The notes beneath the pieces are model-generated. The model saw nothing but the letters and a program-made list of their open reading frames with translations, was not told the origin of the DNA and made no database searches. A stretch of DNA of 64,000 nt. Source: Candidatus Omnitrophota bacterium. Its GTDB lineage: Bacteria > Omnitrophota > Gorgyraeia > JABMRG01 > JAFGKX01. Below, one piece after another: positions 18,001 to 35,150 of this stretch (position 1 is its first letter; each line of letters starts with the position of its first letter). The stretch covers positions 72,338-136,337 of the forward strand of contig JAZDPX010000045.1 in the NCBI GenBank assembly GCA_043797125.1, written 5' to 3'. The translations under genes were made by a program, and so were the position numbers.

Positions 18001-21000
18001 TTTCATAAATGCGTCTGCGTTTTTGTAGGGCCTGTTTTCAGGCGCCATTTTGCTGAATATTACATCTAAAATTTCCCTGGCGCTCATGCCGTTGGTAAGA
18101 TAGCCTGTTTTCTTAAAAAACATCGCGGGTAGCATATGTTCATTGCCTTTTGTTTTTATCCCCAAGTCTGTCGCTATAAGGCCGTATAGAAGATCCTTAT
18201 AGGTTTTTTTATCTATTTTGCATTCTTCAACAGCGCCGACATCGATTAGATAGACCTTTATCTTCCCATCTTTTCTTACTATTCTGAAATTCCCGCCGTG
18301 CGGGTCAGCAAGATAAAGGCCTTTGCCAAACAACTGAACCATTAAAAAGTCAAATATTGTCTTTTTTAACTTTATAAGCTCTGCCTCTGTAAAACCCGCT
18401 TTGGCCTTAAGTTCTTCTTTGTTGTCTAAATCGCTGCCTGCAATTTTTTCCGCGTAAAGCACCGTCTCGGTGGAGTCTTCTCTTATTTTTGGGACTAAAA
18501 ATTCTATTTTTTCGCCCGAAGAAAACTTGTAGCCATTCTCTTTGTTTATTTCTGCAAGCTGCTTTTCCAGCTTCTTTGTGTTTTCTATTTCTCTCTTAAA
18601 GTCCGCGTCCCTTCCCAGGCCTTCCGATGCCCTGCTTTCAAACCCGTGCGGGATTTTTAACCCTTTCTTTCTTAATGAAGTGCATACGCGCCTGAAGAAG
18701 GCTGTCTCCTCATCTAAATAGTGCTGGACATCCGGCCTCTTAATTTTCAGGGCAAGCTCTTCATTGTTATAATCTTCGGCCTCAAAGACAATTTTTATCT
18801 TTGCCGAGCCCAGCGGTTTTCCTATTCTTTTTATCTTGCCCTGCTGGTTTGTGTTTTTAAGTGTTTCAAACGCCACTTTTTTGGTTAATGGGTTTGCTTT
18901 TGAAGACAGTGCGGCAAAGGCGTTTCTTAAAGCCTGCGGAATCCTCACATCCTCCGAAAAAACGAGAATCTGCGCAACCTGTATGCCTATAACATCCAGC
19001 GATTCCATAACCTTCGGAATGATTTCATAATACGCATGGCTGGTTTGGCCTTCCTGTTTTAATAAAAAGGCAAAGTTTACAAACAGGGCCTTGACAACCT
19101 TAAGCCTTTTTGCGCCATCAGCTTCTTGCATAATGGTTAAAAATATCTTTTTTAAATCCCCCTGCTTTATGTCCTTGCCCAGTTCTGTCTTTTTTATAAT
19201 AAAATTGTATACTGTATCGATAAGTTTCATAAAAATCTTCTCATTTTTTAATATACCGTCTTTGCCTAAAAACATCTCCCCGATGAGAAGCTCTCTTGTG
19301 CCTTCTCCGGCATGCGGATAGGCCGCGCTTGGTGATATGGAATAAATATCTTTTAAGGGCTCAAAGGACACACCCAGAAGTTCCTCGTATTCCCGCATGA
19401 ATAGTGGCATTTGGCTTATCCCCGCTATCCACAGAACAAAATCCTTCTTTTCCTCGCACGACATCCGCTCAAATAAAACCTTGAATTTCTCCTCATAGTA
19501 AACATTCTTAATCTTGTCTTCGTCATCCAAAATACCCTTTTTCTCCGCATAGAATAGGCCTGATATCTGTTCATATTCCTGGAACGTCTCGACCTTTTCT
19601 AAAACGCTTTTTAAAATGTCATCGCGCGAGTAGCTCTGGTCGGGGAAATACTTTTTGATTAACTCTATCTCATCATTTATATGCATATCGGGCTTAAGGG
19701 CCTTTTCCAGTTCCAGCGCCTTCAGGGAATACTTGTCTCTAAAATAGGCATTATAGAATTCCCCTAGCAGATTTTGCAGATGTATAACTTTTTCTGTTTC
19801 GCTAATGCCTATATCGCTTAGTACGTTTTCTGCTATCATCTCAAGGTATTTGTCTCTTAGTGGCTGCGAGCGCGGCAGCAGGCTAAGAATATAATTTATC
19901 TTGCCCTCAACGGCTATCTCTGCTTCTATTTTAGCTTCTATATTTTGCTCAAGAGCCGTTGCTATGGCTGCGTCCGGTTGGGCAAGCTTTTGCTGGTGGT
20001 TAAAATCAAAATAAAATATCCCGATTTTCGAAACACCAGCGTGTTTTCTTTTCCTTGCAATATATGACAGAATGGCCTTTCTTAAAAAAATCAGTTCCGC
20101 GTTAGTATAAATTACTCCTATTATCTCCTCCAAATAGTAATTTTTAATAAGCGGAACAAATGCTGCTATTTTGCCGGCTTCTAACGCCTCTTGGGCGCCT
20201 TCGGTGTCTAAGCCTTTTTTATCCATGATTTTTTTAATTTTCTTTACATATCTGCTTTTTAAAAAGTTGTGTTCAAAAAGCCATAATTCAGCCGGGGATA
20301 TTGACAAGTTAAACAGGTTCGCTAAAATAGAAACGTACCCACTGGTTTTCTCGTAAACATATTTGGTTTTCCTAACAACGTAGTCAAGAAAAGCGTGCCT
20401 TTTTTTCCCTCGCAGCTCTTTTAGATAGGTTTTAATCGTTTCTTTTAGCGCTAAATGAACATACGCGCCCACACCTATACCGCCTTCTTTATCTCCCTTT
20501 GCCTTTCTCTGCAGATAAAGAAAAAGGCTCGCGTTTGTTGTAGCAAGTTTATCATCCGAAACCATATGCGGTAATACTTGTTCGAGCTTTTTCATAAATT
20601 CTTTGTCTTCTTTTGCGATTTCATTGAACGATTGCAGATCATACGGATTAAGCTGCTGGTGGTTCTTTTTAATCTCTCTTGCCAATAATGAAAAAAGGAC
20701 AAAATTTCTAAAATAACTTGGGGGAAGTTGCTTGAGCGTAATTTTAATAAGGCCTTCAAAACTTATGCTTGAGTTTAGAATAAAGCCGAATAACCCTTCG
20801 AAGAAATCCTGCCTGCTTCCTGCAAAATCTGTTCTGTCCCCGTAAAAGGGGAGGTTGAACATCTTTTGAAAAAACGGTTCATATTGCATGGAAAATGCTG
20901 TGTTTGGGTTTGCTTTCTTTTCCGTCATGCTAATATTGGACTCCAAACGATCCCTGCCTGCTTTTGAAAGAGGGTTTTTTCTCTTGAATTGTTTTTGCCC

Positions 21001-24000
21001 TAAGTCCAGTTTGTAGCATAGCTCATCCAGCTTTTCCTTTGTTGCTGGGGTGCCTATGGTCTCAAAAAACACCCTTATGCATAAAGGCAGGATAACTTCT
21101 GACGGCTCTGTTACATTTTGCATGCCATCAACTAAGAATGATGTTTCAAATATATCTCTGCCGGAAAAGGCCCGTAAATCAACTTTCTTTTTAGGCGTTA
21201 AGTTATATTTCTCTTTATATAGTTTTGCTAAGTATGCGCTATTTAAAAATTCAACTAATACCCTTCTGTCCTTTATGCCCCTTGCCTTGTATGCATCAAA
21301 AAGGTCTTTTGTTAAGAGTCCGCCGCTGTTAAAAAAACGTATCATAATCTTTGTTTGCTGGCCTAGAGTGTTTGGGTTTACCTCTATGCCAGCTTGTTTA
21401 AAAATTTCTATTAGCTGTTTATCAAATGCTTCGGGCGTGGGAACGCAGCTTTTAAGTTCGTATAACAGCCTTTCTGATAGCGCCATGGGGGTTGTTGCGT
21501 GTTTATTGGATGAATAATAATACTGCAAAAGCTGCTCTAGTGTGTTTATGCGTTCTTCTTTGGCTTTTGGCTCTTTCCAAAAATCAAACATCATAATAAT
21601 GGTTTCGTCCAAGTTCCATGGGAGGGTGGCGCTCAAAAACAGATCCAATAACTGCGTTTTGCCTGTTTTTAATTCCTCCAAAGCATCTGTTGCTATTGTT
21701 TCATAAATCATTTTTTTATCAGCTTTATCTGTTATGCGCTCCAGCATCTTTGCAAAAAAGGTCTCCATGGATTTTTTGTCGAGGCTTTCCTCGCGATAGT
21801 GTTTGTATAAAAATTCAAAAACCGTTTTGCGCACGGCCGTTCTGGAATAAACCAAAAACGGATATTTCATAAGAAAATCAGCTTTTGCTTTATTGTCTAA
21901 TCCTGTATCTTCTAAAAGCCTGTTCGTTAATAAAGAAAGATCGTTGAAGCCGACTAAAAGCCCCTCTTGCCTGCTCGCGGTTGTCATAATGTCTTCCCAG
22001 TCTTGCCATGAAAGCTTATCGCTTATAGCAAAGGCCCCTTCCCAAATAAATTCTATATAAGTAAGCAGGGACTCCCCGACAAAAGAAAACGTAATGGTAT
22101 CCTGGGGCATTAGAAAGTTCTGCGCTGTTTGCAGATATGCGATTATGTCGTTTTTGTTGTTCAGCTTTCCTTTTAATGTATTTTTAAGCCGATTTTCCAA
22201 TATTTCCCGGAAGATACGCCTACTATCATCATGCCTTGAAGAGTGCTGAGAAGGCTTCGTTTCTATTTGGGGCCATGAATCTTTAAGAAGCTTAAATTTT
22301 ACCATTTCCGCCATTGTCGTGCCAAGGCTTTGTTTTATTGTCGCGAAGAAATTTTTATAATCCTGCCTTAATTGCGCATATTTTTGCTGCGTAAGTATTG
22401 TGTCGTAAACTCCATATGCCTCGGGCCTCATGCGTTTAAATGTGAAAACTTTGTACGGCGTAGGAGGGGTTATGTCCTCAAGAAGAAGCTTGGTTATATC
22501 CTGGTAATCATCGTTGTTGCCGCATATTAACGCGAAAATCAAAGCCGGCAGATAATGCTTCTCATTATCTTTTGTGGTTATGTCGTTCGGGACTGCTTTT
22601 AACGCGCTATCAAGGCCCTCAACTAATATTTCAAAAATATGCTCTGGAAAAGACGCGGCTTTCTCCAATAGTTGTGTCAGCTCATTTATGTTTTTTACCG
22701 AGTAAGAGCTCTCTATTGTTTCCAGCAGCAGCGTTTTATTGGATAGCTGCCCTAGGGCCTTTTGTGAAAATAGATGTTTTGTCTTTGTGTTTATCCAGTT
22801 ACTGCTGTCTAAAATTTCTTTTATCAACTTAATCCTTTTCTCATCCGGAAGGTGCACGTCAATTAAATCAACCGCTGTTCTAAGAAGATCCGGGAGTTTA
22901 TCCAGCTTGCTTAATATATCAAAGGTCTTGGCAGCTTCTAAGACATTGTAGCTTGCTGAGTTCATTAGCGTCAAAGCCCAGACATCTGCGTCTATTTCCT
23001 GCGCAAATTTTTCTTTAAGGGTGGTCCCCTTTCCTTGGACCATGTGCCGTATCTCGTGCGCCAGAATAAAGGCTATTACGTCTTTGGTTAAGCATTCGTT
23101 TTTCTGGAAATGCTTTAAAAGCCCCAGGGAAATGCATACAATTTTATGGTTGGTGATAGTAAATGCCGTTACCTCATCTGTTTCTAACAGATATAGCGCT
23201 GCGTCGGCCCATTCTTTTCCTGTTAAATGGGCGCAGAGCTTCTGAAATATCTCGTTGATTTCTTGATAAAGGCCGGAAAACGGCGAGGCTTCGCCATCTT
23301 CTATAAGACAGTGCATTCTCTTCAAAATATCTATTGTGGACCTTTTTCCATTTGCATCGGTGGCAGCAGTTAATCCTGCTATATCTACATCTTCAGGCAA
23401 GTCTGGTGAGCGTATTCGCGTAGGCGCCTTAGGAGCATCTCTTGGGCCTTTTTCTTCTTTGGTAATTGTGTATGTTTCTCTTTTGTCCAGCACGCTCTTA
23501 AGCTCTTCGTTGCGCTCCTGGTGCGGGATCTGTTTCTTGGCCATATCCGGGGATTGCTCTGGGTTACCAGTTTGCAGCGTTGTAGCGCGGGCAGGCTGCC
23601 CAACAACTATTTCTAATTTGTAGTCCTTAAGATCCAGTGGCACTAACAGCGCCTCGCCCAACGCAGGCACAGGGAAGTTTTTCTCTTCTGTTTCTGTTGG
23701 AGGAAGCCACATAAGGTCAAACTGGCCCCTAATTTCAACATTTGCGTTTATTCCTGCGGCCTTAAAGCGCCTAACCATGTATCTATATTGCTTTTTGACT
23801 GCTTCATCTACATGTGCCCTAAATTCCTCTCGCGACTCTTCTGGAATATTAAACATTTCGTACAGCGGGTTATATACGTCCTTCCACCCAAGCACCGCGG
23901 CTCTTTCCTCGCGGCCCGTATAATTAGAAAACTCTGCCGAGCTGCCTATACGCGCAAACGTGCCTTCCATGCCGCTTGCTGCGTCTGTGTCATAAACAAG

Positions 24001-25326
24001 CTCGCATTGTTCGGATGATAAATTGCCTTTAAACATATGCCGAGTTTCATATGCCATGTTGTTATATTTAATAACCGGCATAACAGATTCCATGACCCCT
24101 GAGTCTAACCCCGGCGTTGCAATATCTCTTATTGTAGATATAATATCAACTGCGTAGGCAATATTTGTGTCTATAAGAATCTTTGCTATGTGCTGGTTGT
24201 TGTTCTCTATAATGCTGACTCCTCCGGCGCCTGCTAATTTGCGTTTGCACTCTTCTATAACCGAGGTTTCTGTTGTTATAACTATTCTGCCGGATTGCTC
24301 CTTATCTAAAAAGAAGATCCCGTGGCCCCTCGCCCTACGATTCGGTTTGTACACCAAGGGCAATGCAATATCGCCCCAAAGCGCCCTCTTTATTGTGTCT
24401 TTAAAGTCTTTGATGTCTGCCGGGTTTACAAAAAGTGCATTTTGCCCGTCGTCGTCTCCAAACGTGACAAAAAATTCCGGCTGCTGAATTGGGCCGCTTC
24501 TAAAAAAGTTTCTCTGCTGGTATTTATGATTAAATCTATTTCGCATTTGTAGAAACGTAAGCCGCATAGCTGGCGGCAGGTTTGGGAAGGGGTTTGAGAT
24601 CTTCTCTGTCTGCGGAATCTGTTTCTTGGGCGTTTTTAGCACAATCTTGTTTAAAGGGATGCTCGGCTCGTATGCTGTTTTGCCTGTCGTTTCCCCGCTT
24701 ATGGCTTCTGCGCTCTCGCCCCGGCCTTTTTCTGTTTTTGCGTTAATCGCTTCTTCAAAAAGGTCTTGCACGTTTTCATTTTCGCACGCAAGCGGCGCAG
24801 CAAGGCTGCTTTGCATCGCCGTCATAATATCCCCATAGCCCGGCAATGCGCCTTGCATTCTTTGCTCATAAAGCCTCTCGCAGTCGCCATCTCCGAGATT
24901 TGGGCATATTACGATATAGGAGATGTCTTTTTGCTTTAAGATATTTGTTATCGCGCGGGTATGGAAGCCGCCTGTTACCAACACGCTTTTTACGCTACCG
25001 GTTCTATCCATCGCTCGCAATGTGTTTTCAATTAACGCAACGTCTCTTTTTGTGGCTAATTCGTAATATTCTTTTGCGTTGTTTATCGCTTCCTGGTTTA
25101 TCTGCGTTGTTAAAATATAAGGATTTATGGACAGGCCGCATTCCGGCATGTGTTTGCTTAAAAATGTTTTTATGTTAGCTATGTTTGTGTGTTCTGTGTC
25201 ATTATTAATGGAGGCGAGGCGCTCGTTGGTGAGTTTAAGCGAAAATAAATCGTTAAGCAGATTTATTGCTTTTGAGAATTTAACAAGCTCGCGCTGGGTG
25301 TTGTTTTGAGAAATGGCGGTAAGCAT
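1..25326 (-). CDS. giant multidomain protein, 3'-partial (continues beyond left window edge); >8,400 codons in window; helical-repeat arrays, M48-like HEXXH module, internal duplications
   Basis: Minus-strand frame with codon starts at positions congruent to 1 mod 3 is open at every hand-translated site. Sites checked: 1-300, 3361-3615, 6541-6720, 11701-11991, 14881-15183, 23011-23253, 23821-24559, 25258-25510. The provided track lists no long minus ORF in 1..25262, as expected for a frame open to the window edge. The plus-strand ORFs here are low-complexity antisense artefacts. First in-frame ATG (reverse complement) is at 25324-25326, and an in-frame TAG lies just upstream at ~25499-25501. 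Confidence 0.6.
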   Translation of the reverse strand, partial: MLTAISQNNTQRELVKFSKAINLLNDLFSLKLTNERLASINNDTEHTNIANIKTFLSKHMPECGLSINPYILTTQINQEAINNAKEYYELATKRDVALIENTLRAMDRTGSVKSVLVTGGFHTRAITNILKQKDISYIVICPNLGDGDCERLYEQRMQGALPGYGDIMTAMQSSLAAPLACENENVQDLFEEAINAKTEKGRGESAEAISGETTGKTAYEPSIPLNKIVLKTPKKQIPQTEKISNPFPNLPPAMRLTFLQMRNRFNHKYQQRNFFRSGPIQQPEFFVTFGDDDGQNALFVNPADIKDFKDTIKRALWGDIALPLVYKPNRRARGHGIFFLDKEQSGRIVITTETSVIEECKRKLAGAGGVSIIENNNQHIAKILIDTNIAYAVDIISTIRDIATPGLDSGVMESVMPVIKYNNMAYETRHMFKGNLSSEQCELVYDTDAASGMEGTFARIGSSAEFSNYTGREERAAVLGWKDVYNPLYEMFNIPEESREEFRAHVDEAVKKQYRYMVRRFKAAGINANVEIRGQFDLMWLPPTETEEKNFPVPALGEALLVPLDLKDYKLEIVVGQPARATTLQTGNPEQSPDMAKKQIPHQERNEELKSVLDKRETYTITKEEKGPRDAPKAPTRIRSPDLPEDVDIAGLTAATDANGKRSTIDILKRMHCLIEDGEASPFSGLYQEINEIFQKLCAHLTGKEWADAALYLLETDEVTAFTITNHKIVCISLGLLKHFQKNECLTKDVIAFILAHEIRHMVQGKGTTLKEKFAQEIDADVWALTLMNSASYNVLEAAKTFDILSKLDKLPDLLRTAVDLIDVHLPDEKRIKLIKEILDSSNWINTKTKHLFSQKALGQLSNKTLLLETIESSYSVKNINELTQLLEKAASFPEHIFEILVEGLDSALKAVPNDITTKDNEKHYLPALIFALICGNNDDYQDITKLLLEDITPPTPYKVFTFKRMRPEAYGVYDTILTQQKYAQLRQDYKNFFATIKQSLGTTMAEMVKFKLLKDSWPQIETKPSQHSSRHDDSRRIFREILENRLKNTLKGKLNNKNDIIAYLQTAQNFLMPQDTITFSFVGESLLTYIEFIWEGAFAISDKLSWQDWEDIMTTASRQEGLLVGFNDLSLLTNRLLEDTGLDNKAKADFLMKYPFLVYSRTAVRKTVFEFLYKHYREESLDKKSMETFFAKMLERITDKADKKMIYETIATDALEELKTGKTQLLDLFLSATLPWNLDETIIMMFDFWKEPKAKEERINTLEQLLQYYYSSNKHATTPMALSERLLYELKSCVPTPEAFDKQLIEIFKQAGIEVNPNTLGQQTKIMIRFFNSGGLLTKDLFDAYKARGIKDRRVLVEFLNSAYLAKLYKEKYNLTPKKKVDLRAFSGRDIFETSFLVDGMQNVTEPSEVILPLCIRVFFETIGTPATKEKLDELCYKLDLGQKQFKRKNPLSKAGRDRLESNISMTEKKANPNTAFSMQYEPFFQKMFNLPFYGDRTDFAGSRQDFFEGLFGFILNSSISFEGLIKITLKQLPPSYFRNFVLFSLLAREIKKNHQQLNPYDLQSFNEIAKEDKEFMKKLEQVLPHMVSDDKLATTNASLFLYLQRKAKGDKEGGIGVGAYVHLALKETIKTYLKELRGKKRHAFLDYVVRKTKYVYEKTSGYVSILANLFNLSISPAELWLFEHNFLKSRYVKKIKKIMDKKGLDTEGAQEALEAGKIAAFVPLIKNYYLEEIIGVIYTNAELIFLRKAILSYIARKRKHAGVSKIGIFYFDFNHQQKLAQPDAAIATALEQNIEAKIEAEIAVEGKINYILSLLPRSQPLRDKYLEMIAENVLSDIGISETEKVIHLQNLLGEFYNAYFRDKYSLKALELEKALKPDMHINDEIELIKKYFPDQSYSRDDILKSVLEKVETFQEYEQISGLFYAEKKGILDDEDKIKNVYYEEKFKVLFERMSCEEKKDFVLWIAGISQMPLFMREYEELLGVSFEPLKDIYSISPSAAYPHAGEGTRELLIGEMFLGKDGILKNEKIFMKLIDTVYNFIIKKTELGKDIKQGDLKKIFLTIMQEADGAKRLKVVKALFVNFAFLLKQEGQTSHAYYEIIPKVMESLDVIGIQVAQILVFSEDVRIPQALRNAFAALSSKANPLTKKVAFETLKNTNQQGKIKRIGKPLGSAKIKIVFEAEDYNNEELALKIKRPDVQHYLDEETAFFRRVCTSLRKKGLKIPHGFESRASEGLGRDADFKREIENTKKLEKQLAEINKENGYKFSSGEKIEFLVPKIREDSTETVLYAEKIAGSDLDNKEELKAKAGFTEAELIKLKKTIFDFLMVQLFGKGLYLADPHGGNFRIVRKDGKIKVYLIDVGAVEECKIDKKTYKDLLYGLIATDLGIKTKGNEHMLPAMFFKKTGYLTNGMSAREILDVIFSKMAPENRPYKNADAFMKSLPAGISLKYFLRSPVKVIKDVLKTGKKPGQSPDMVKKEISHEADEKQKKAVHRALVRIRSPEALEAVANSDALNVKKLAKKLNLTQDQIRQRLIQIAQPINVIIVKNRLTLHHEGPYAHTRRGVSKKGDTAIWLGEKLFASEKITDEDIALLLLEEAKHILDPYADHKIISHSKGLQRKLNRAAKALREPLPATICEADMAESMLKNPFVKIFIIGAGIFAALTYLVRNPDETLKRIDQYFNKKPQASLSKTAPVSISNVPMLDKDITDLLKRAAEDAQAADDLINLYYERADTEPMISLGIMGSLIDMARGGSGYIEEKLKQIDAAPLLKYTPNKLDAIYWIDKLTGFDNPTAFSCLVKLGNLGEAEAVSVLENATYGRARKTAKQALKEINPDKFAENIALEHLFTDSPSANALATMVNAGNVAARGELINLILKGNAWATIRAASADLKDDAKMRQLLKYMDTDVLINPTAEGKNQDFDFAALRVLIDIDNPNIYKTLRKLVSMGATVASYGLRYAAEQGKISVLGTLIDILKSNDVKNHFYYSVADSLLILASDENPAPDEIKNKALGVFKDDFKKALPYMQFEPGVNSPGVMAVVNKSIDLIGTDKVKKIRQDIEAKYNRAPQKILLYLCMPEVVYPLLEAHKQMAENGIDIDLSYFISAAFAEGYIAFAQDCIAGEETVFHIALPLGLDRFGESEERLRKKGFLPQNYKGFVRGGTTYNNEAGDNFPLGTFLSPKDALIAHGALLLEDRDNFIKEVKRHGYDTARLTEEEIEVGTYLQYCTGNSVPYLKEYGTDIVGKIGTGTHGNGIYNAQWPPAGAEFLEETGIVEKTGEPKKSEVAKEISANKPNASGIAIAGTLMTQIGGAWLRLWRRIRMLWAALRLGREESPDMADKELVHEVSNEELKKIIDENRMYRINIYDWWENHMQERLGRVRGKIHRTAELEGFDVKTMADKLGLKEDQAREELIRVGKKIDIIVVKNSFRLYRGGPIAHARRGVSRKDDRAIWIGQNLLLSADIDDTDIARLLLEEAKHILAPKLEHKDIAHNQALLKRLEEKAMFFPRGAEEETAEYRGKQIDEIKIENTPGIGPVRLVHILDKYTFGDYILANQHFIGPSIYYYDKEDINRHAAKLKILAGIKEDMSWLEFKWYLERNAQEAKDVFRCVNNQTSLKTKLLRFLKILPGNAPTKSKNDVKNLLAENNQVIIEDIWDILLDARALEEEDYDLIYDIISRFGAEGKRKILDEIMHKIFSPGEMNKIYYTNMIRIIAKALDRHNEAIKRDFLGGVKKGLRVYYSQTRNEDVLAKTEEGDVSVPRGAYVLKQILPHINDQTTMEELFEMVKPLLTYNTRGSDNPGPREREIGLWLCKNSLRRLEDDELKLFLLEQACSCLSYSYRGSTRKDMGPGMMDILAAELIAETMPYLAFSNQETLMPKLIENLGYAELVDRGSRIDKITKIASKFNNWQKANILYAGNFSKAKAPSWIKEYLPDQRPVDKKEEYRLVADIAASIETRGLAGRMADCGVNAEEAKKLLTKEIPLRYQDMLTADMAATTAVAMAESRIGIDKIRSLLMDTIPQQYNNADLCYYMIGAIKAAAIMAKGGIDIEIIERAIGEKWPIQCRGNTSLAARIIEQAGIRAVGLIKSGVADKIVSAAKDAAKENISKGAVESLFIYDLVLLYHDINRTIPAEEAPEEASLPDYSMNKDKAFRAIGLIGNDKDTEYGWSYAYETAWSELVQRYALMDEIKIGETILQLIKLGVRFEEIKTIFTIGLKGNERLAKSVSRIAESEIKRYGLISPRDKTDLTTLPCSDTPFAYEKGDEDAKALIMLLFCEIPLKYREIPVEAAKAAAGLVWRGAEITKVKNLFLENQGTYGKVQKFNKILDSGAIYKIADKIEKLKPTGSSKTIARVIDLLFFQMPDNYDYADRFADAVETLEKIASSDIIDKIATKLNWLVSEKEARAKLAELLFFRLQTDPLCRQFQGPSGRNETSDVAMRAHVYAYEVAEGLGEITGSGVINKIAEKLGKLIGEEKAKAKTTELILSEMPFYDHVSAYETAPLLEQIAALDIIDKISAKLSTRLGEEEAKTKVIDFLLFKLPKLYGKNFYRIAKAAGSIISEAGFSFESTAEFLLETPNPHLDTTAKTIELIEELAESDAIAKIVTELRNHLNALTGKASEEKAKAKTIDPLLFKVFLKYDNNSHEILNAILQMLKTGVSISAIQECLENFASADKSTSLETIKILGNIAGSEQISKIRSALKQQLDDFGATNTIELMLTRWLPHEYSSVTCEKGPGQDDLSREINKAINLASSDPAASKLIELLFIKLPSCKYGINVCDLVIKMIKAGASIEQTEQLLTEEMPKMYGAQAKEAVPGLLELGQRFEKSNLKRFLEIVIKRLPRELSNFTASIESFMRGMQTIPAQRLLQYIDSRDKKRAMDIMLLDNNHQSIFEHIELFMNALEDKQEDKKKKSEKTLFINNVFIQVASESSPGNNAPPSHVQFWQIVKAACDLKEKHGNWREEIRSIELDNQAFKELKIELLEKNRFLESWEQFQRLEMLISIIGANDLEKALNLYRFSGTEDGRKIYAYYHKLLTHQAVKSGYSKTIEKMILDPREFLDLEDTNVPLSNHIKKISRLLELEYVDIGAEELLLGLILGKYDHLQVLQPLSTTIDISDVDTEIKTIKGGSLLQRLASYGAEEGILREVLVKYFKQKQESDDYKTQTNGTANGINKILTLLQKGQTTFGTIVDQTKNAKFGVEELKGCGLILPRYTISLMRKSDPDTIMTGSELSNCMSLSSGKNTHYIFNPNSQILILSKETASADGIRYNKILATSVVTADREITRRISELEEIIKSVAPSSINPSQYDEAIEKLRDLFDAEKLFGSDFMDKISKEVYISLDNVEGDANFASSNKMAEKIVETAYIKFFKEYFEERGTTLRGRPINKSKVIVGTRHSKFLHSLDGKLDNYFLTQILNVYSDKADSTVNFLPIEDSYKPTPAKELNGVKPLSPEDLLEISYIESKAFKDIALGGNHIAGIEMELLGIMYNEALKGERRKNLSLGYFKDGKLLGYVIAHVGYDKEREEEIVCISDFAVLHKKGKAAGALMKELFKSIRGTAKMFKEKYEKDIKIIFDSTPDAQGSYWLLMPRKDDSEATKLKKQQRLAEAGLIIESPAEADTQPGKDFIKFVLRVDLDAPEQNYKNSRELVPVAQIGKDGEFTEIDLARQTATIKDLKGDKHPVKLELQSDETLKALITAVETLIKDKPAHRKLLEMFLKLREKSPPALYTFDTLIEDAFGTALPEQNTILLYKNLLNNPNALLHEIEEYVCKSNNIQFKLQDDTLVIAKSKLYILKSITKIKLPAPILEWLNIKLRQNPENKTHYYLRALAKATLGETDEKLTKAIKQQAGTEKAYVQINQLKFIKDDESEAMVDVYERAPGSAYGEKLGTLTLYQRTMDHPLRMVQAGIDALGIKDSERNWLLYFMFRPLQYAQPKFYIYNKLIKGLTSFASPEHRLIALYEDFADEPIAAWHELMKYLIKAGKLKIKFKHSHWGKNKIVVEDSDKKEKAEINITGEALSIALKNPKESDYLLKALQREIFKDSDKKLIRKIQHKQNPPAEDVSILSLINSSCCWFGKLKIAADKIARPEAKIKTLTNLAIAQAKAGLKEEAKKTFDDVKTTIEENDGITYKISYLAELAITQAQVGLKEEAKKTIIAAENLLAKTKEGLFKQEGYESLAAAQIETGLFDDAKNNINETINASRKFALLIRLAIKQAKEGLAEKAESTLEEAKDIIKEEPVYSADFEDVPTGWANLGAAQAQIGLTKEAKESFAKAQSLLDSKGVLAYGVETHWGYFVKAQIRAGFFDDAKYTMDKHNAGGVSISDIASAKMQTGLLDEVKDMIDKMHYTNDKFELLINLIAKQVEKGLVKDAINTLKDAQGVMHATSRASYINKLAELATAQALVGLTEEAEATIFKARMALDDISGSSKLKARVILAGAQMHAKLFEKAKDAIEDVIDSYDEAKIDADFILALSSFTNHTPALIKRFTEPKKLKELLDAPRQKEKAKAQKLFSQALLLGFWNEQFARQDCIKLAYRAAEACLNGLGFKKESISLLTKTESKTLKLLVSVNKQRDYQRQKQFIHDFLEIIMLWYQLFPGDANLYNLTTIFDNYDASTVSASRKLSAILTLLQEIENKCNYIGLFSKLSREPKVFIYQLELIAKYKHSLDLLDDPQKIARLDLTNMDEASSKTSIEEVICDSLSDLLGGEISKTKRKLHSDATEALADADFLVDLFNFRQAYSKESEAAYTRLTELARVYLLKGTQGIIEHKASHRLAFKQAPHHVRDKFSELAKLKETASPEAPDDNLSIFDAWFKTNFENYKRHIGEYSASFRESSVASEEDIQKLENKLKDLYAGAADVQLKEAILSKDINELKKLRFDKENLDENKRNGAIGLLGKLNIIKDNSISKQAMGIMDEIGLIEQCPLDEQAQEVRKLYERCENSLADIITGLNTLYQMLQSQNKPQSIIAADMIGLLKTLQKLPTSRQKSKEAVSAEVGFDLKETLKIGRYGASGQGNCQRSTSAGENKHSLTSFIGDAQELIIITKNAAMDTLGLVLLHGVYLESGEFVYVKEKLYTNYNHLTGAQQKAVSKLTQGIANLLNIKILDCYGEGEKETFTVTIPESYVPRYLDSLGGQVKAASAKATITSSVIEPQVKIGNPASARIGKKGGARGIIYRNGKRYLSIQDIELERYGFAPYELAQVEIKALDKNRVETLMRSAQALAETPLRDKEIWGKFLELFKNIPEKDKPEFCSFKPSAEHPTLDYFGHAEPKDKLLVLHENLLEYPLALLHEIKEYVCKYYKIEFEVEKKEQGGGATITIKGIGKIEIAGDNYSRLNNRLINMPQEYKTHYFLLSIQEALLPKQNTQLREKIRKEQVIAQEKLTDIYVGNFSKGALEETPTAQHAKKPVTKNKKKILEHIATERSLTDVAKTAETKYKLVIDDEAATQYKSLVIDKKNKRLAMSCFKALKKISSTGNNIGKIQSKKRTGFKGIKYGIGAKEEPVVPRAIRLTGDLRILFAPVKVYGKQVMLIFGIKTHKELEGGGARNEYDQFTAAAKAAADFKQGYIDLIKNDLKEYIAKNNITKAQALEGRLQEIAKMIFVEQQRPADNRPEFIRIDNVSGISKIDRKDYENMGFPQYDTTTSDNIAGRIGKETMLILETFKFTKPDKNQAKIEICKPVGADEIIEGEPTKVVSLGTLFFNKTGIDPKTALRDSVEKAGLMLEEDKQFVFKITDFYEETPALYNFAYADLIKDLFGFALNDERNLIVLHEKLVGNPVALFHELCHYFIGYEPGRQKLLELVYDRENAAIIVRARKDSSQEFEEIGRARISPETLLSIANEDKEAWPEYGQWHKNPHHLLRILQRQIFGKYDVELTRWIKLNKDLHGFRKIEDSLYEKFRKDRSFIAQLGHGRKSFDLPGIELDLSKEETKKRLHAQHCLVRAICKRELGDYKGAETEIKEAIKAYPDEEFLYWKALDIYEEAKDYERLNEMYEKIAEKFGQFSKLHVRMLEAYEWYSPREENVQRIIKHSGLLVAKAAEEEDICLGYCARITIAIRSEQYNMARYYIQQAQKGSFSKEFALETDFYLAATELLEGKTDEARARLENIFKETLENMELKEAMRFISSIYGNVHSAELLELLLSEISGKEGEKEKQKASVRMKYCILSMLHSIEPDNETILKLKAVVGGIFEEASHIQECLEKAETEPDARGKINIIETTLKKYPDNTILKDEIAKICLNEGTAAFDAKDLDTAVEFFRKALEVKPEDRVIIDKAAQAFLDKAKQHSQQNHFTEAVTILEEAFKHCKGKPVINELKTTYVNAAEALLKDKDWNILARSDKEDFKRAKEYFEKAHELEKAKELDLQDSTIKTRLDKVKAHYEKVFELDNMFREAETLMAETRTREEKVNALVGKAPTLEGKDNTAGSRYPLVLNA
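5900..7060 (-). other. array of ~36-40-aa alpha-helical hairpin repeats (TPR-like) within the giant ORF
   Basis: Translation of 6541-6720 gives ...FALLIRLAIKQAKEGLAEKAESTLEEAKDIIKEE.... The DNA periodicity (gcctctgcttcttc...gggcctgggc motifs) recurs across ~5.9-7.1 kb. Confidence 0.5.
11400..12300 (-). other. HEAT/armadillo-like ~55-aa helical repeats within the giant ORF (recurrent GEE[EK]AKAK / IDKI..KL motif)
   Basis: Translation of 11701-11991 gives ...AEKLGKLIGEEKAKAKTTELILSEMPFYDHVSAYETAPLLEQIAALDIIDKISAKLSTRLGEEEAKTKVIDFLL.... The DNA repeats visibly (ttcttcttcgccaa / ttttcgcc motifs). Confidence 0.45.
23044..23058 (-). other. HEIRH (HEXXH) zinc-metallopeptidase motif inside the giant ORF, with upstream NAF-like and GLL elements in an M48/HtpX-like arrangement
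   Basis: Careful translation of 23011-23253 gives ...EVTAFTITNHKIVCISLGLLKHFQKNECLTKDVIAFILAHEIRHMVQGKG. Confidence 0.5.
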
Positions 25327-26477
25327 TTTCTCTTGCGCTGCTTCGATTTCTTCGAAAAGCGCAAGGTGGTCGATGCGCTTGGAGAGCGCAAGGTAGTCGA
25401 TGTAGGCGAATAAATCATTGTGGGCTGTGGGCTGTGGGCTGTGGGCTTGTTGGCTGGTGACTTTGTGACCTGGTGACCTGGTGACTCCGCCAGTCCTGCT
25501 AGATAACTATAAAATTCCTCGTCCGTTATTTTGCCCAGCTTAAATTCCAAGCTTTTCGAGAGAAGCTCCTGTAATTTATCTTTCTCGAGGGTTTCTGAAA
25601 GTTCCTTTATCAACGCCTCCCTTTGTTCCTGGGCTTTGTTAAAATCTATTGCCTTCTCTTTTTCGACAAGCGCGATGAATGCCTGCAAATTTTTATATTT
25701 TGTTAAATCTGTTTTTGCTTTGTTGGAATATTTTTCTAATTGCTGGGCGTATTCTGAAAGCGTGATCGTTTTGTTGCTGTAATCATCGTTTGCCCTGTCA
25801 AGCGCAAGCATATCCTTTGCGTACGCTTCGGCTTTTAGCCTGTTTAAATCCGACCTTAAAAGCGCCGCGAAAGAAATTACATCCTGCTTGTTTAGCTGGT
25901 ATTTTTTATTACAATCAAGATGTTCAAGGTATAAGCCTCTATCCTCAACGCCTGTAGGCACTAAATATTTATCCCTGTTGGTTATCTTGTAAAATTCCGC
26001 CCCTGTAAAAAGCGCTGTTTTTACAAATGCTTGCGCAACCTGCTTTTTTCTTTCTGTATCCGGGAATTTATCGTAAAAGGATGTATCAAGCTCTCCGGAG
26101 GCGCCTTCAAGGCATAAAAGATGAAGGTTGTGCTTTTGCGCCAGGTTATCTATTATGCCTGCTATGTTAAATTGGGCGCAAGCATCCGCATGGCGGTCCT
26201 GGATGTGGACAATTAACTTTTGCTGGCTGCCTTTATATGTTTCTAAGACTCTGCCGTGTTTTTGGGATACTGACAAATCCAGCGGCGTAAGCGCAAGGCC
26301 GGTTTCTGCTTCTTTTGTTTCTTCATTAACATATCTTTGCGCGTGGGAGGTTTTCTTAAACAGGGTCTGGCCGTCAAAGCCGTAAGCAGGCGTGTTTGTT
26401 GTGAGAAAACATATTATTAGTATTATTGAGATAATCCTAATAATAAATTTCTTATGAGGCTTATGTACGTCTATCAT
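25263..26477 (-). CDS. signal-anchored secreted/membrane module (404 aa); probable 5' portion of the giant gene, separated from it by a frameshift inside a heptamer repeat
   Basis: ATG at 26477 with N-terminal hydrophobic helix (MIDVHKPHKKFIIRIISIILIICFLTTNTPAYG). Protein-like sequence continues until the repeat tract at 25420-25489. After the tract, this frame becomes low-complexity junk while the giant frame becomes protein-like. Confidence 0.55.
   Translation of the reverse strand: MIDVHKPHKKFIIRIISIILIICFLTTNTPAYGFDGQTLFKKTSHAQRYVNEETKEAETGLALTPLDLSVSQKHGRVLETYKGSQQKLIVHIQDRHADACAQFNIAGIIDNLAQKHNLHLLCLEGASGELDTSFYDKFPDTERKKQVAQAFVKTALFTGAEFYKITNRDKYLVPTGVEDRGLYLEHLDCNKKYQLNKQDVISFAALLRSDLNRLKAEAYAKDMLALDRANDDYSNKTITLSEYAQQLEKYSNKAKTDLTKYKNLQAFIALVEKEKAIDFNKAQEQREALIKELSETLEKDKLQELLSKSLEFKLGKITDEEFYSYLAGLAESPGHQVTKSPANKPTAHSPQPTMIYSPTSTTLRSPSASTTLRFSKKSKQRKRKCLPPFLKTTPSASLLNSQKQ
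25420..25489. repeat. (GTGGGCT)4 heptanucleotide tandem repeat followed by degenerate 7/8-mer units (TGGTGAC-like); coding phase changes here
   Basis: Four perfect GTGGGCT copies at 25420-25447, then tgttggc, tggtgac, tttgtgac, ctggtgac, ctggtgac. Both reading frames through the tract encode AHSPQPT-like peptide. Confidence 0.8.
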
Positions 26478-33460: not shown

Positions 33461-34810
33461 CTATTTGTTGTTTTTAATGTTATACACAATTTTATCTATG
33501 GATTCTTTTATGTTTTTGTTGTTTATGACCTCTTTTTTTATTTTTTCGTGCGCGTGCAGTATTGTGGTGTGGTCTTTTCCGCCAAACAGGTTTCCTATCT
33601 CTGGGAACGAGTTATCGGTCAGCTCTCTAGATAAATACATGGCGACCTGGCGCGGAAGCGCGACGCTTTTTGTTCTTCTTTTACTTTTTATCTCCGCCAC
33701 GCTTATATTAAAATACTCAGACACAGCCTTTTGTATGGATTTAATAGATATTTCCTTGTTTTCTTCTGCCGCAACCTCTTTTAAAACCTCCTTGGTCATA
33801 TCCAGATCTATGGTTTTGCCTATCAAAGAAGAAAACGCGACAACCCTTATTAGGGCCCCCTCCAATTCTCGTATGTTTGTCTTAACTTTTTCCGCAACAT
33901 AAACAACAACGTCGTCAGGCACGCTTATAATCTCTTTTTCGGATTTTTTCTTTAAAATAGCCACCCTTGTTTCAAAGTCAGGCGCCTGTATATCCGTAAC
34001 AAGGCCCCACTCAAAACGCGAAACCAGCCTTTTTTCCAAAGAAAGGATCTCTTTGGGTGGGCGGTCGCTCGACACAACAATTTGTTTGTGCGCATCGTAC
34101 AGGGTGTTGAATGTGTGAAAAAACTCTTCCTGGGTGGCTTCCTTGCCGGCAATAAAGTGTATATCGTCTATTAAGAGAACATCCTGCTCGCGGTATTGTT
34201 CGCGGAATTTTAACATGGTCCTGTTTTGCAGCGCGCTAATCAGCTGGTTTGTGAATTTTTCGCTGGATATGTATGTAACCTTAAGCCGGGGGAGATTTTT
34301 AATTATATGTTGTCCAATTGCCTGCATAAGGTGGGTTTTTCCAAGCCCTACCCCGCCGTAAATAAACAACGGGTTATATGACTTTGCCGGCGATTCTGCC
34401 ACAGCCATAGACGCGGCATGCGCAAAGCGGTTGCTAGGCCCAACCACAAACTCCTCAAAGGAATACCTGGCGTTAAAACGCACTCCTGGCTGGATAAGGC
34501 GCTCAAAAGGCTTGGTAAAAAAACCAAGGCCCCTTTTCTCCTTTTGTTTTGCGTCGTCACTAACAGCGCCCCCCTTAGCAATGGTTATCTCGAAGTCAAG
34601 GGGCCCGCCGGCCGCACTCGTTACGGCCTTTTTAATGACCTCGCTATAATGCTCAGAAAGCCATGTTTTAAAAAACGCGTTGGGCGCCTCAATAATAAGC
34701 CTCCCGTCCGCAAGAGAAACCTGCTTTATGGGCAAAAACCACGTTTCATAGCCCTGCGGGCTTACTTCCTGCTTTATCTGCTTTAAGGCGCCGTCCCAAA
34801 GGTTTTCCAC
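33461..34810 (-). CDS. dnaA: chromosomal replication initiator DnaA
   Basis: 449-aa ORF with Walker A (GGVGLGKTHL), AAA+ sensor motifs and a C-terminal DnaA-box-binding HTH domain. Confidence 0.95.
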   Translation of the reverse strand: MENLWDGALKQIKQEVSPQGYETWFLPIKQVSLADGRLIIEAPNAFFKTWLSEHYSEVIKKAVTSAAGGPLDFEITIAKGGAVSDDAKQKEKRGLGFFTKPFERLIQPGVRFNARYSFEEFVVGPSNRFAHAASMAVAESPAKSYNPLFIYGGVGLGKTHLMQAIGQHIIKNLPRLKVTYISSEKFTNQLISALQNRTMLKFREQYREQDVLLIDDIHFIAGKEATQEEFFHTFNTLYDAHKQIVVSSDRPPKEILSLEKRLVSRFEWGLVTDIQAPDFETRVAILKKKSEKEIISVPDDVVVYVAEKVKTNIRELEGALIRVVAFSSLIGKTIDLDMTKEVLKEVAAEENKEISIKSIQKAVSEYFNISVAEIKSKRRTKSVALPRQVAMYLSRELTDNSFPEIGNLFGGKDHTTILHAHEKIKKEVINNKNIKESIDKIVYNIKNNK

Positions 34811-35012: not shown

Positions 35013-35150
35013 ATGAAAAAAAATCTAACATTAAAATCTAACCGGAAAAGAAAATATAAACACGGGTTCAGAAGAAGAATGTCCACCAAAACAGGAAGGC
35101 GTGTCCTGGCAAGGCGCAGACAAAAAGGGCGCAAAATCCTGTCTGTATAA
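35013..35150 (+). CDS. rpmH: 50S ribosomal protein L34
   Basis: Encodes [45 protein letters not shown], not listed in the provided track. Confidence 0.9.

What the first reader, a model, noticed from the sequence alone, without database searches (positions are those of the whole stretch)
22950..24560. M48/HtpX-like HEXXH zincin module and adjacent enzyme-like globular segment embedded in the giant protein
Careful translation gives NAF-like ...GLL...AFILAHEIRH. This is the arrangement of M48 metallopeptidases (xNAFAT...GLL...AHExxH). It is followed C-terminally and preceded N-terminally by non-repetitive, globular-looking sequence (23821-24559), unlike the helical repeat arrays elsewhere. This suggests a catalytic head near the N-terminus of a mostly repeat-built protein, for example a self-processing or effector protease.
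Basis: partly seen in the sequence, partly recalled or inferred. Interest (0 to 1): 0.6.

Follow-up and report, generated by a model that had tools for sequence, protein, structure and literature searches.

The report
BepA-type M48 protease in giant protein
The flagged stretch really encodes a zinc protease domain of the M48 family (closest to E. coli BepA), next to a tubulin-tyrosine-ligase-like ATP-grasp domain, near the start of a giant (>8,800 aa) protein of an uncultivated Omnitrophota bacterium. It is a sound domain call in an unusual architecture, not a new kind of enzyme.

Summary
Observation confirmed, on the minus strand. One stop-free frame runs 25506→1 (≥8,502 aa, off the window). 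It encodes ...AFT(781)...GLL(795)...AFILAHEIRH(812-821)...QEIDAD(836-841)...HLPDEKR(885-891).

- **M48 call.** Pfam Peptidase_M48 scores above its cut-off. A profile of 25 homologous segments hits solved M48 structures: 3C37 at 2.8e-23 and BepA at 3e-17. An AF2 model (pLDDT 88) matches BepA and 3C37. H817, E818, H821, E837, D841 and R891 are invariant. The domain is soluble and BepA-like, not membrane-embedded HtpX.
- **Adjacent segment.** The "globular segment" (aa ~303-640) is an unmodelled ATP-grasp domain (pLDDT 91; best fold match tubulin tyrosine ligase). It also occurs as stand-alone proteins.
- **New context.**
  - The M48 domain heads a collinear ~1,800-aa block ending in an ABC1/UbiB kinase-like domain. 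This block recurs in Omnitrophota large proteins.
  - The gene really starts at 26477 with a signal/anchor segment. It is split in this assembly by a frameshift inside 7-nt and 8-nt tandem repeats.

The substrate is unknown, so self-processing versus trans-acting protease is unresolved. I rate it a new variant of a known kind, of moderate interest.

The parts
22792..23328 (-). M48 (BepA-type) zinc metallopeptidase catalytic domain, giant-frame aa ~727-905
   Evidence: Pfam PF01435: E=5.8e-7, 29.9 bits, cut-off 20.3. Profile A2 against PDB: 3C37 at 2.8e-23, BepA at 3e-17, HtpX at 7e-7. AF2 model pLDDT 88. Foldseek: BepA 6SAR at E=7.6e-6, probability 1.0.
23116..23166 (-). AFT...GLL motifs (aa 781-797), counterpart of the M48 'NAFA ... 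GLL' strand region
   Evidence: Read directly from the translation. Homologues carry NAFA/TAFA/KAFA at this position, and G795 is invariant. The region aligns to 'vnAFa...GLl' of 3C37 and BepA.
23044..23058 (-). HEIRH (aa 817-821): two zinc-binding His and the catalytic Glu
   Evidence: H817, E818 and H821 are invariant in 25 homologous segments. The motif aligns with AHEIxH of 3C37 and BepA.
22984..23001 (-). QEIDAD (aa 836-841): third zinc ligand E837 in the E-x-x-A-D helix
   Evidence: E837 and D841 are invariant. The motif aligns with BepA 'NEQEAD' and 3C37 'EYENQAD'. BepA E201 is the third ligand (bioRxiv 10.1101/2020.07.07.192476).
22834..22854 (-). HLPDEKR (aa 885-891): M48 C-terminal H-P-x4-R motif. 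H885 is the counterpart of the BepA His-246 'histidine switch'.
   Evidence: H885 is conserved in at least 90% of sequences and R891 is invariant. The motif aligns with BepA 'THPLPESR'. The loop just before it (aa 872-883) has pLDDT below 50.
22552..22791 (-). Helical extension following the protease core (aa 906-985)
   Evidence: It is conserved in homologues, with phmmer coverage to aa ~979. It is modelled as helices at pLDDT above 90.
23329..23586 (-). Charged, Pro/Lys/Glu-rich linker between the ATP-grasp and M48 modules (aa 641-726)
   Evidence: No homologue aligns across it: modules B and C match independently. The composition is read. That it is disordered is an inference.
23587..24600 (-). 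ATP-grasp-fold, TTL-like domain ('module B', aa ~303-640).
   Evidence: It has 64 homologous cluster representatives among the top 150, both embedded and stand-alone. AF2 model: pLDDT 90.7, pTM 0.90. Foldseek top hit is TTL 4I55_F (E=8.6e-4, TM 0.43); all further confident hits are ATP-grasp enzymes. The profile hits TTLL7 at E=0.06 on the V-x-K-P-N..G.G motif. No Pfam or NCBIfam model matches.
24772..26450 (-). Conserved ~570-aa N-terminal module ('module A'), split between the 404-aa ORF and the giant frame
   Evidence: The joined sequence aligns end to end with residues 1-~570 of more than 80 large proteins, down to E=3e-159. The invariant residues are listed. No Pfam, NCBIfam or PDB sequence match was found.
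26391..26447 (-). N-terminal hydrophobic signal/anchor segment (FIIRIISIILIICFLTTNT), preceded by KPHKK
   Evidence: Kyte-Doolittle 19-residue mean of 2.15. 37 of 39 homologues with complete N-termini have such a segment.
25419..25485 (.). 7-nt (x5.3) and 8-nt (x4) tandem repeats at the frame break between ORF 25263-26477 and the giant frame
   Evidence: Detected by TRF. One extra 7-nt unit restores a single frame...KPTAHSPQPT|AHNDLFAY.... No slippery heptamer is present.
17845..23367 (-). Collinear conserved block M48 → ~1,300 aa helical region → ABC1 (aa 714-2554)
   Evidence: blastp gives 38.5% identity over 1,750 aa to P0009. P0020, P0062, P0025, P0035, P0005 and P0024 are also collinear. 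Pfam finds M48 plus ABC1 in P0009, P0020 and P0025.
18166..18819 (-). ABC1/UbiB atypical kinase-like domain (aa 2230-2447)
   Evidence: Pfam PF03109: E=4.5e-23, 82 bits.
17317..17373 (-). Second predicted transmembrane helix (aa 2712-2730, FVKIFIIGAGIFAALTYLV)
   Evidence: Kyte-Doolittle 19-residue mean of 2.16. It is the only other segment above 1.5 in the visible protein.

Best explanation
**What it is.** Window 22792-23328 (minus strand) encodes a catalytically intact, soluble M48 zinc metallopeptidase domain of the BepA/3C37 type. It sits inside a giant multi-enzyme protein of an Omnitrophota bacterium.

**How the protease most likely works.**
- Shown by alignment: H817, H821 and E837 are the zinc ligands and E818 is the general base.
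- Inferred from BepA: H885, at the end of a flexible loop, reversibly occupies the fourth zinc position. The domain would therefore be latent until that loop is displaced (the 'histidine switch').
- Inferred: extended polypeptide substrates dock on the AFT/GLL strand region.

**Architecture.** The order is: N-terminal signal/anchor, then a 570-aa conserved module, then a TTL-like ATP-grasp domain, a linker, the M48 domain, ~1,300 aa of helical sequence, an ABC1/UbiB kinase-like domain, a transmembrane helix, and at least 5,700 more residues.
- The M48→ABC1 stretch is inherited as one block in related Omnitrophota proteins.
- The ATP-grasp domain is a separately mobile module.

**Role (weakly inferred).** I think the protease acts as a tethered, regulated trans-acting enzyme at the cell envelope. 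Its targets would be the cell's own or prey envelope or partner proteins. I think this more likely than a dedicated self-cleaving enzyme.
For: **Identity**
- Pfam M48 scores above its cut-off.
- The profile of 25 homologues hits 3C37 at 2.8e-23 across nearly the whole domain, BepA at 3e-17 and HtpX at 7e-7.
- The AF2 model has pLDDT 88 and pTM 0.85. Its eight best Foldseek hits are BepA and 3C37, at probability 1.0.

**Catalytic competence**
- G795, H817, E818, H821, E837, D841 and R891 are invariant, and H885 is at least 90% conserved.

**Histidine switch**
- H885 aligns with BepA 'THP' His-246.
- The preceding loop is the only low-confidence part of the model.
- The BepA mechanism is described.

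**Soluble type**
- No hydrophobic segment occurs between aa 1 and 2711 of the giant frame.

**Cassette**
- Collinear blastp blocks to seven or more proteins.
- M48 plus ABC1 in three homologues.

**Envelope location**
- The N-terminal signal-like segment is conserved in 37 of 39 homologues.
- BepA-type M48 enzymes are periplasmic.

**Lineage**
- GyrA is 67% identical to Omnitrophota MAGs.
- Homologues are named as Candidatus Omnitrophota proteins in NCBI.
Against: - No activity, substrate or cleavage product is known.
- The HEXXH-to-Glu spacer is 16 residues, against about 60 in BepA. The active-site cleft may therefore differ.
- **Topology conflict.** If the N-terminal segment exports the chain, the ATP-grasp and ABC1 domains would lie outside the cytoplasm, where there is no ATP. 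If they are cytoplasmic, the BepA analogy for location fails.
- The gene is frame-shifted in this assembly. The protein may not be made from this allele.
- West-Roberts et al. propose that peptidase domains in Omnitrophota giants cut the giant itself. That idea is not excluded here.
Confidence: 0.7

Rival explanations
1. The M48 domain is a cis-acting maturase. It cuts the inter-module linkers of the giant polypeptide and releases the ATP-grasp, ABC1 and downstream modules as separate proteins.
For: - Long charged linkers flank the module (aa 641-726).
- The same role has been proposed for C39 and S8 peptidase domains near the N-termini of Omnitrophota giant proteins (bioRxiv 10.1101/2023.11.21.568195).
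- The module sits early in the chain.
Against: - No cleavage data exist.
- Solved relatives (BepA) act in trans on other proteins.
- The M48 domain is inherited together with ABC1 as an uninterrupted ~1,800-aa conserved block. That fits a unit that stays together better than a cutter of variable linkers.
- Many proteins of the same N-terminal-module family lack the M48 domain: 56 of the 150 representatives carry module A alone.
Confidence: 0.2
2. The domain is a non-catalytic binding or chaperone-like module. It keeps the M48 fold but does not cleave.
For: - BepA has a protease-independent chaperone-like function, and its crystal form is latent.
- The HEXXH-to-Glu spacer is unusually short (alignment).
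Against: All metal-binding and catalytic residues are invariant across 25 homologues that share as little as 18-30% identity. That argues for selection on catalysis.
Confidence: 0.07
3. In this genome the whole gene is a pseudogene or is switched off. The frameshift at 25419-25485 separates the signal/anchor and the first 353 residues from the rest, so the M48 module is not produced.
For: - The two ORFs align as one continuous domain in more than 80 homologues.
- In the window they are in different frames.
- No slippery site for ribosomal frameshifting is present.
Against: - 25.5 kb downstream of the break is still free of stops. That is implausible for an old pseudogene.
- The break lies exactly in 7-nt and 8-nt tandem repeats, where slippage or an assembly miscount by one unit would produce it. 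One extra unit restores the frame.
Confidence: 0.1
4. The HEXXH is a chance motif in helical filler sequence.
For: A second HEXXH (HELCH, aa 7851) elsewhere in the protein has no detectable family or PDB match. This shows that bare motifs do occur.
Against: Pfam, the PDB profile search, fold prediction and five co-linear family motifs all agree on M48.
Confidence: 0.01

Closest known systems
E. coli BepA (YfgC) and Geobacter sulfurreducens Q74D82 (PDB 3C37): soluble periplasmic M48 peptidases
   Same: - The order of motifs is the same: NAFA-like strand, GLL, AHExxH, E-x-x-A-D and H-P-x4-R.
- The predicted fold is the same.
- The zinc ligands and the counterpart of His-246 are present.
- There are no transmembrane helices in the domain.
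- The protein likewise has helical and TPR sequence elsewhere.
   Different: - It is embedded about 1,140 residues into a protein of more than 8,800 aa, rather than being a 250-490-aa protein.
- The HEXXH-to-Glu spacer is about 16 aa, against about 60.
- Asn of NAFA is replaced by Thr, and HP by HLP.
- It is covalently linked to an ABC1 kinase-like domain.
- Sequence identity in the structural alignments is only 14-20%.
HtpX / Ste24 / Oma1 (membrane-embedded M48 peptidases)
   Same: The HEXXH and E-x-x-A-D catalytic core is shared. The HtpX fragment 3CQB matches at 7e-7.
   Different: - No transmembrane helices flank the domain.
- NCBIfam HtpX gives E=0.046 against a cut-off of 245 bits.
- Ste24 matches only at E=0.037.
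Tubulin tyrosine ligase / TTLL and other ATP-grasp amidoligases (RimK, YheC/D): for the adjacent segment
   Same: - The predicted fold is shared. The best PDB match is TTL 4I55_F, followed by TTLL11, TTLL3, TTLL7 and TTLL6, biotin carboxylase and succinyl-CoA synthetase beta.
- The V-x-K-P-N..G.G motif aligns with TTLL7 'IVKPANGAMGHGI'.
- Acidic residues are conserved on the last two strands.
   Different: - No Pfam or NCBIfam ATP-grasp model reaches significance.
- TM-score is only 0.43.
- The Asn of the usual E-x-N magnesium motif is not conserved.
- Many stand-alone members carry signal-like N-termini.
Giant multi-enzyme proteins of Omnitrophota ('Archaeovorins' and relatives; West-Roberts et al. 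2023 preprint; 2026 preprint 10.64898/2026.06.07.730766)
   Same: - The lineage is the same.
- Shared features are giant size, an N-terminal signal/anchor, a peptidase domain in the N-terminal part, scattered enzyme domains and TPR/helical scaffolding.
   Different: The peptidases reported there are C39, S8 and signal peptidase II. Neither text mentions M48, ABC1 or UbiB. Of the hallmark Archaeovorin domains, none was detected in the visible 8,500 aa.
Plastoglobule / cyanoglobule pairing of ABC1 kinases with the M48 peptidase PGM48 (sll1280)
   Same: ABC1-family kinases and a soluble M48 peptidase work side by side on one compartment (PMC12223511). Here the two domains sit in one polypeptide.
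   Different: In plastoglobules they are separate proteins on lipid droplets. No homology beyond the family level was tested. The parallel is a lead, not evidence.

Membership tests
Peptidase family M48 (Pfam PF01435; MEROPS M48) | HEXXH on the active-site helix | tested here: met
   HEIRH is at aa 817-821. H, E and H are invariant in 25 homologues. The motif aligns to AHEIxH of 3C37 and BepA.
Peptidase family M48 (Pfam PF01435; MEROPS M48) | Third zinc ligand Glu in a downstream E-x-x-A-D helix (gluzincin) | tested here: met
   E837 in QEIDAD is invariant. It aligns with BepA E201 in 'EQEAD'. The spacing is unusually short, 16 aa after the second His.
Peptidase family M48 (Pfam PF01435; MEROPS M48) | Upstream NAFA-type strand and GLL motif | tested here: met
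   The window has TAFT...GLL. Homologues have NAFA, TAFA or KAFA, and G795 is invariant.
Peptidase family M48 (Pfam PF01435; MEROPS M48) | C-terminal H-P-x4-R motif (counterpart of BepA His-246) | tested here: met
   The window has HLPDEKR. H885 is at least 90% conserved and R891 is invariant. The motif aligns to BepA THPLPESR.
Peptidase family M48 (Pfam PF01435; MEROPS M48) | Score above the curated family threshold | tested here: met
   29.9 bits against a gathering score of 20.3, although only profile positions 9-79 of 186 are matched. The profile-to-PDB match to 3C37 covers positions 35-218 of 290.
Peptidase family M48 (Pfam PF01435; MEROPS M48) | M48 fold | tested here: met
   The AF2 model has pLDDT 88. 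Foldseek gives BepA and 3C37 at probability 1.0, E down to 7.6e-6, TM 0.42-0.53.
Peptidase family M48 (Pfam PF01435; MEROPS M48) | Zinc-dependent endopeptidase activity | not testable with these tools
   Needs biochemistry.
HtpX subfamily (membrane-integrated M48) | Transmembrane helices flanking the catalytic domain, and an HtpX-level sequence match | tested here: not met
   No hydrophobic segment lies within about 1,800 residues of the domain. NCBIfam HtpX gives 13.1 bits against a cut-off of 245.
Lit (e14 phage-exclusion protease, NCBIfam NF007238) | Full-length match above the curated cut-off | tested here: not met
   23.9 bits against a cut-off of 274. Only the HEXXH-to-E-x-x-A-D stretch matches (aa 810-859). 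PADLOC finds nothing.
ATP-grasp superfamily, TTL-like (adjacent segment) | ATP-grasp fold | tested here: met
   The model has pLDDT 90.7 and pTM 0.90. Every Foldseek hit with probability of at least 0.9 is an ATP-grasp enzyme. The best is TTL at E=8.6e-4, but TM is only 0.43.
ATP-grasp superfamily, TTL-like (adjacent segment) | ATP-binding Lys on the K-P strand followed by a Gly-rich loop | tested here: met
   V-x-K387-P-N..G.G is at least 90% conserved. It aligns with TTLL7 IVKPANGAMGHGI.
ATP-grasp superfamily, TTL-like (adjacent segment) | Mg-binding acidic residues (D/E ... E-x-N) on the last two strands | tested here: inconclusive
   D597 (FDLMW) and E618 are at least 90% conserved and lie on the last two strands of the model. 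The Asn is not conserved. Equivalence to the TTL residues rests on my recollection of that family, not on a superposition.
ATP-grasp superfamily, TTL-like (adjacent segment) | Significant match to a curated ATP-grasp sequence model | tested here: not met
   The best matches are ATPgrasp_YheCD at E=0.093 and a carbamoyl-phosphate-synthase-like model at E=0.098.
ABC1/UbiB atypical kinase family (downstream partner domain) | Pfam PF03109 above threshold | tested here: met
   82.1 bits against a cut-off of 22.9, at aa 2230-2447. The domain is also present in P0009, P0020, P0062 and P0025.

The most novel reading that the evidence does not exclude
The first ~3,000 residues form an exported, membrane-tethered enzyme 'head': an unknown 570-aa module, a TTL-like ligase, a latent M48 protease and an ABC1 kinase. 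The ATP-dependent parts of this head can only work inside a prey or host cell. Its production is toggled by slippage of the 7-nt repeat at 25419-25456, which would make this a phase-variable giant predation effector.
Probability: 0.1. Interest if true: 0.8.

Novelty: new variant of a known kind. Interest (0 to 1): 0.45.

Why it matters
Giant Omnitrophota proteins are thought to mediate predation or parasitism. Whether they act whole or are cut into pieces is still an open question.

- **A third protease type.** This locus adds a BepA-like M48 to the C39 and S8 peptidases already discussed for these proteins.
- **A conserved cassette.** The M48 domain travels with an ABC1/UbiB kinase-like domain as one conserved ~1,800-aa block.
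- **An unmodelled family.** The TTL-like ATP-grasp family beside it has no Pfam or NCBIfam model. It also occurs as small, often signal-bearing proteins.
- **Clear experimental handles.** These are the E818Q and H885A mutants, and the repeat count at the frame break.
- **An annotation correction.** NCBI names the relatives only 'AarF/UbiB family protein'. Automatic gene calling would also miss the true start of this gene.

Tried and rejected
- **Word-indexed protein search.** It found nothing with aa 301-960. With the module-B profile it returned only one of the profile's own members. The family is too divergent for that index; the exhaustive HMMER search was needed.
- **Genome-contig scan with the module.** No relatives found.
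- **Synteny.** None of 80 gyrA loci, eight of them Omnitrophota, carries a relative of the giant protein within 10 kb.
- **Defence and phage libraries.** PADLOC found nothing, and PHROGs gave one weak hit of unknown function.
- **Lit match.** The NCBIfam Lit hit (E=2e-5) covers only the generic gluzincin active-site stretch, so I rejected it.
- **Module A as TraB/Tiki/ChaN.** I suspected this from the motifs IQDxH...LEG...KRD...GGFH.
- **-1 ribosomal frameshift at the ORF junction.** No X_XXY_YYZ site is present.
- **Gene neighbourhoods of five stand-alone ATP-grasp homologues.** There is no recurrent partner and no M48 nearby. The metagenome scan gave only four loci.
- **Domains fused to module B elsewhere.** They are heterogeneous: DUF7790, PfkB, HATPase_c and GNAT.
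- **Second HEXXH (aa 7851).** No family or PDB match.
Full report
**1. What is at the coordinates**

The window carries a replication-origin neighbourhood. On the minus strand lie dnaA (33461-34810), dnaN, gyrB and gyrA (26905-29334). On the plus strand lie yidC, parA and parB. AT and GC skew change sign at about 34-35 kb.

Downstream of gyrA is a 404-aa ORF (25263-26477, minus). After it, a single stop-free frame runs from 25506 to base 1: 8,502 codons that run off the window. I number residues from 25506.

- AFT = aa 781-783.
- GLL = aa 795-797.
- AFILAHEIRH = aa 812-821, with HEIRH at 23044-23058.
- The requested third ligand is present as QEIDAD (aa 836-841), with E837 at 22996-22998.
- The C-terminal family motif is HLPDEKR (aa 885-891, 22834-22854). 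It lies just below the finding's lower bound of 22950.

GyrA is 67% identical to Candidatus Omnitrophota MAGs. The closest relatives of the giant protein are also named as Omnitrophota proteins in NCBI.

**2. The M48 call**

- Pfam Peptidase_M48 matches aa 752-825 at E=5.8e-7, 29.9 bits against a gathering score of 20.3.
- NCBIfam gives only sub-threshold hits: Lit at 23.9 bits against 274, and HtpX at 13.1 bits against 245.
- The word-indexed homologue search found nothing. The exhaustive HMMER search of 1.84 billion representatives found 1,836 proteins at E≤1e-3.
- I aligned the window's aa 716-985 with 24 homologous segments (A2). Invariant columns are G795, H817, E818, H821, E837, D841 and R891. 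H885 is at least 90% conserved.
- That profile hits PDB 3C37 ('Peptidase, M48 family') at 2.8e-23 over profile positions 35-218. It hits E. coli BepA (6AIT, 6SAR) at about 3e-17 and the HtpX fragment 3CQB at 7e-7.
- All five motifs are in register in the printed alignments: nAFa, GLl, AHEixH, E-x-x-AD and HP-x4-R.
- The AF2 model built from A2 has pLDDT 88.0 and pTM 0.85. Its eight best Foldseek matches in the PDB are BepA and 3C37, at probability 1.0 and E down to 7.6e-6.
- No hydrophobic helix lies anywhere between the start of the giant frame and aa 2712.

The domain is therefore a soluble, BepA-type M48 rather than a membrane-embedded HtpX or Ste24 type.

**3. Mechanistic reading**

In BepA the zinc is held by H136, H140 and E201, with E137 as the base. 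His-246 sits at the end of a flexible loop and occupies the fourth zinc position. This keeps the enzyme latent, and H246A or loop deletion de-represses it (bioRxiv 10.1101/2020.07.07.192476).

By alignment, the window's H817, H821, E837, E818 and H885 are the counterparts of these residues. The only low-confidence stretch of the model is residues 157-168 (aa 872-883), the loop immediately before H885.

I infer a zinc endopeptidase that is auto-inhibited by H885. This is an inference, not a demonstration.

One difference may alter the substrate cleft: the spacer between HEXXH and the Glu helix is 16 residues, against about 60 in BepA.

**4. The adjacent 'globular segment'**

The exhaustive search resolved the query into three independently conserved modules.

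- It has 64 relatives among the top 150 representatives. Some are embedded at various positions in large proteins. Others are stand-alone proteins of 330-480 aa.
- Neither Pfam nor NCBIfam recognises any of them.
- The AF2 model built from alignment A1 is confident, with pLDDT 90.7 and pTM 0.90.
- Its best PDB match is tubulin tyrosine ligase (4I55_F, E=8.6e-4, probability 1.0, TM 0.43). Biotin-carboxylase domains, TTLL11, TTLL3, TTLL7 and TTLL6, and succinyl-CoA synthetase beta follow. All are ATP-grasp enzymes.
- The A1 profile's best PDB sequence hit is TTLL7, on the V-x-K-P-N..G.G motif (E=0.06).
- Conserved residues are K387, E473, E487, T488, R489, D597 and E618. D597 and E618 lie on the last two strands of the model.

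I conclude it has an ATP-grasp fold and is TTL-like. Ligase activity is plausible but untested.

About half of the stand-alone members carry signal-like N-termini. Five stand-alone loci share no neighbour, and none has an M48 gene nearby.

**5. Surroundings that change the picture**

*(a) The true gene start.*
- I joined the 404-aa ORF to the giant frame at the repeat (...KPTAHSPQPT|AHNDLFAY...). The joined sequence aligns end to end (aa ~10-570) with residues 1-~570 of more than 80 large proteins, with E down to 3e-159.
- The two ORFs are therefore one gene that starts at 26477 with a hydrophobic signal/anchor segment. 37 of 39 homologues have such a segment.
- The frame break lies in a 7-nt repeat (25419-25456, 5.3 copies) that abuts an 8-nt repeat (25454-25485, 4 copies). 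One extra 7-nt unit restores the frame.
- No slippery heptamer is present. The 25.5 kb downstream is still open.
- I read this as a repeat miscount or as genuine slippage, not as decay.

*(b) The M48→ABC1 block.*
- The M48 domain is the head of a collinear conserved block, aa 714-2554. The block ends in an ABC1/UbiB kinase-like domain (PF03109, E=4.5e-23, aa 2230-2447).
- P0009 is 38.5% identical over 1,750 aa. P0020, P0062, P0025, P0035, P0005 and P0024 are also collinear.
- Pfam finds M48 and ABC1 about 1,450 aa apart in three homologues.
- A transmembrane helix follows at aa 2712-2730.

*(c) Architectures among the 150 representatives.*
- 'Module A ... M48' occurs 22 times and 'A ... ATP-grasp' five times. 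No other protein has A-B-C in this order.
- The ATP-grasp module is therefore a lineage-specific insertion here.

*(d) Internal repeats.*
- Only about 24% of the visible protein shows internal similarity, and the first ~2,700 aa show none.

**6. Unresolved**

- **Topology.** A conserved N-in signal/anchor predicts that aa 30 to ~3,040 of the joined protein is extracytoplasmic. That suits a BepA-like protease but not ATP-dependent ATP-grasp and ABC1 domains. Three possibilities remain: the segment does not translocate the chain, the chain is delivered into another cell, or those domains are not ATP-driven here. I could not test any of them.
- **Substrate.** It is unknown. West-Roberts et al. 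suggest that peptidases in these giants self-process. I rate that at 0.2. I prefer a regulated trans-acting role, because the solved relatives act in trans and because M48 is inherited welded to ABC1.
- **A lead only.** ABC1 kinases and the M48 peptidase PGM48 (sll1280) co-reside on plastoglobules and cyanoglobules (PMC12223511).

**7. Comparison, novelty and score**

- The M48 domain meets every sequence and fold criterion tested for M48, and fails the HtpX-subtype criteria.
- The two Omnitrophota giant-protein preprints mention C39, S8 and signal-peptidase-II domains. Neither mentions M48, ABC1 or UbiB.
- NCBI names the relatives 'AarF/UbiB family protein', 'TPR protein' or 'protein kinase'.
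- The enzyme kind is therefore known. What is new is the architecture: the M48-ABC1 cassette, an unmodelled TTL-like ATP-grasp family and an unmodelled 570-aa N-terminal module.
- My verdict is a new variant of a known kind, with interest 0.45.

Noticed in passing
window 25419-25485 (and ORF 25263-26477): The 404-aa ORF upstream and the giant frame are one gene. It is interrupted inside a 7-nt (x5.3) and an 8-nt (x4) tandem repeat. One more 7-nt unit restores the frame, and no slippery site is present. This is either an assembly miscount or slipped-strand phase variation.
   Followed up: partly
window 24772-26450 (minus): A conserved ~570-aa N-terminal module is shared by more than 80 large Omnitrophota-type proteins. 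Its invariant residues are D94, H96, Q102, E124, G125, E161, E178, R480 and G505-G-F-H508. It has no Pfam, NCBIfam or PDB sequence match. The motif pattern reminded me of TraB/Tiki/ChaN-type domains, but that is untested.
   Followed up: partly
window 17845-23367 (minus); ABC1 at 18166-18819; TM at 17317-17373: M48 and an ABC1/UbiB kinase-like domain form a collinear ~1,800-aa cassette that is conserved in at least seven other proteins. A transmembrane helix follows it. The ~1,300 aa between the two domains have no recognised family.
   Followed up: partly
window 1942-1956 (minus), aa 7851-7855: A second HEXXH (ALFHELCHYF) lies in the C-terminal part, near TPR repeats. It has no Pfam or PDB match and may be chance.
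   Followed up: partly
window 34810-35397: The intergenic region between divergent dnaA and yidC coincides with the sign change of AT and GC skew. It is probably the replication origin (oriC).
   Followed up: no
window 61486-61505 (+): The heptamer of the frame-break repeat (GCCCACA) occurs here 2.9 times, inside ORF 61006-61881. Three units make 21 nt, which stays in frame and would encode an AHSPQPT-like peptide.
   Followed up: no
giant aa 2441-2687 vs 3300-3566 (window ~17446-18186 and ~14809-15609, minus): This is the strongest internal duplication in the giant protein (34-49% identity, E=8e-36). The first copy starts right at the end of the ABC1 match.
   Followed up: no
loci L085-L090; proteins P0014, P0026, P0034, P0045, P0100, P0121, P0122, P0133: Stand-alone members of the TTL-like ATP-grasp family often begin with signal-peptide-like segments. 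They sit in gene-poorly-annotated neighbourhoods: one is next to radical-SAM and transglutaminase-core genes, another next to a SET-domain gene. No partner recurs.
   Followed up: partly
P0025: One close homologue of the M48-ABC1 block is labelled Elusimicrobiota rather than Omnitrophota. This could reflect lateral transfer or a mis-binned contig.
   Followed up: no
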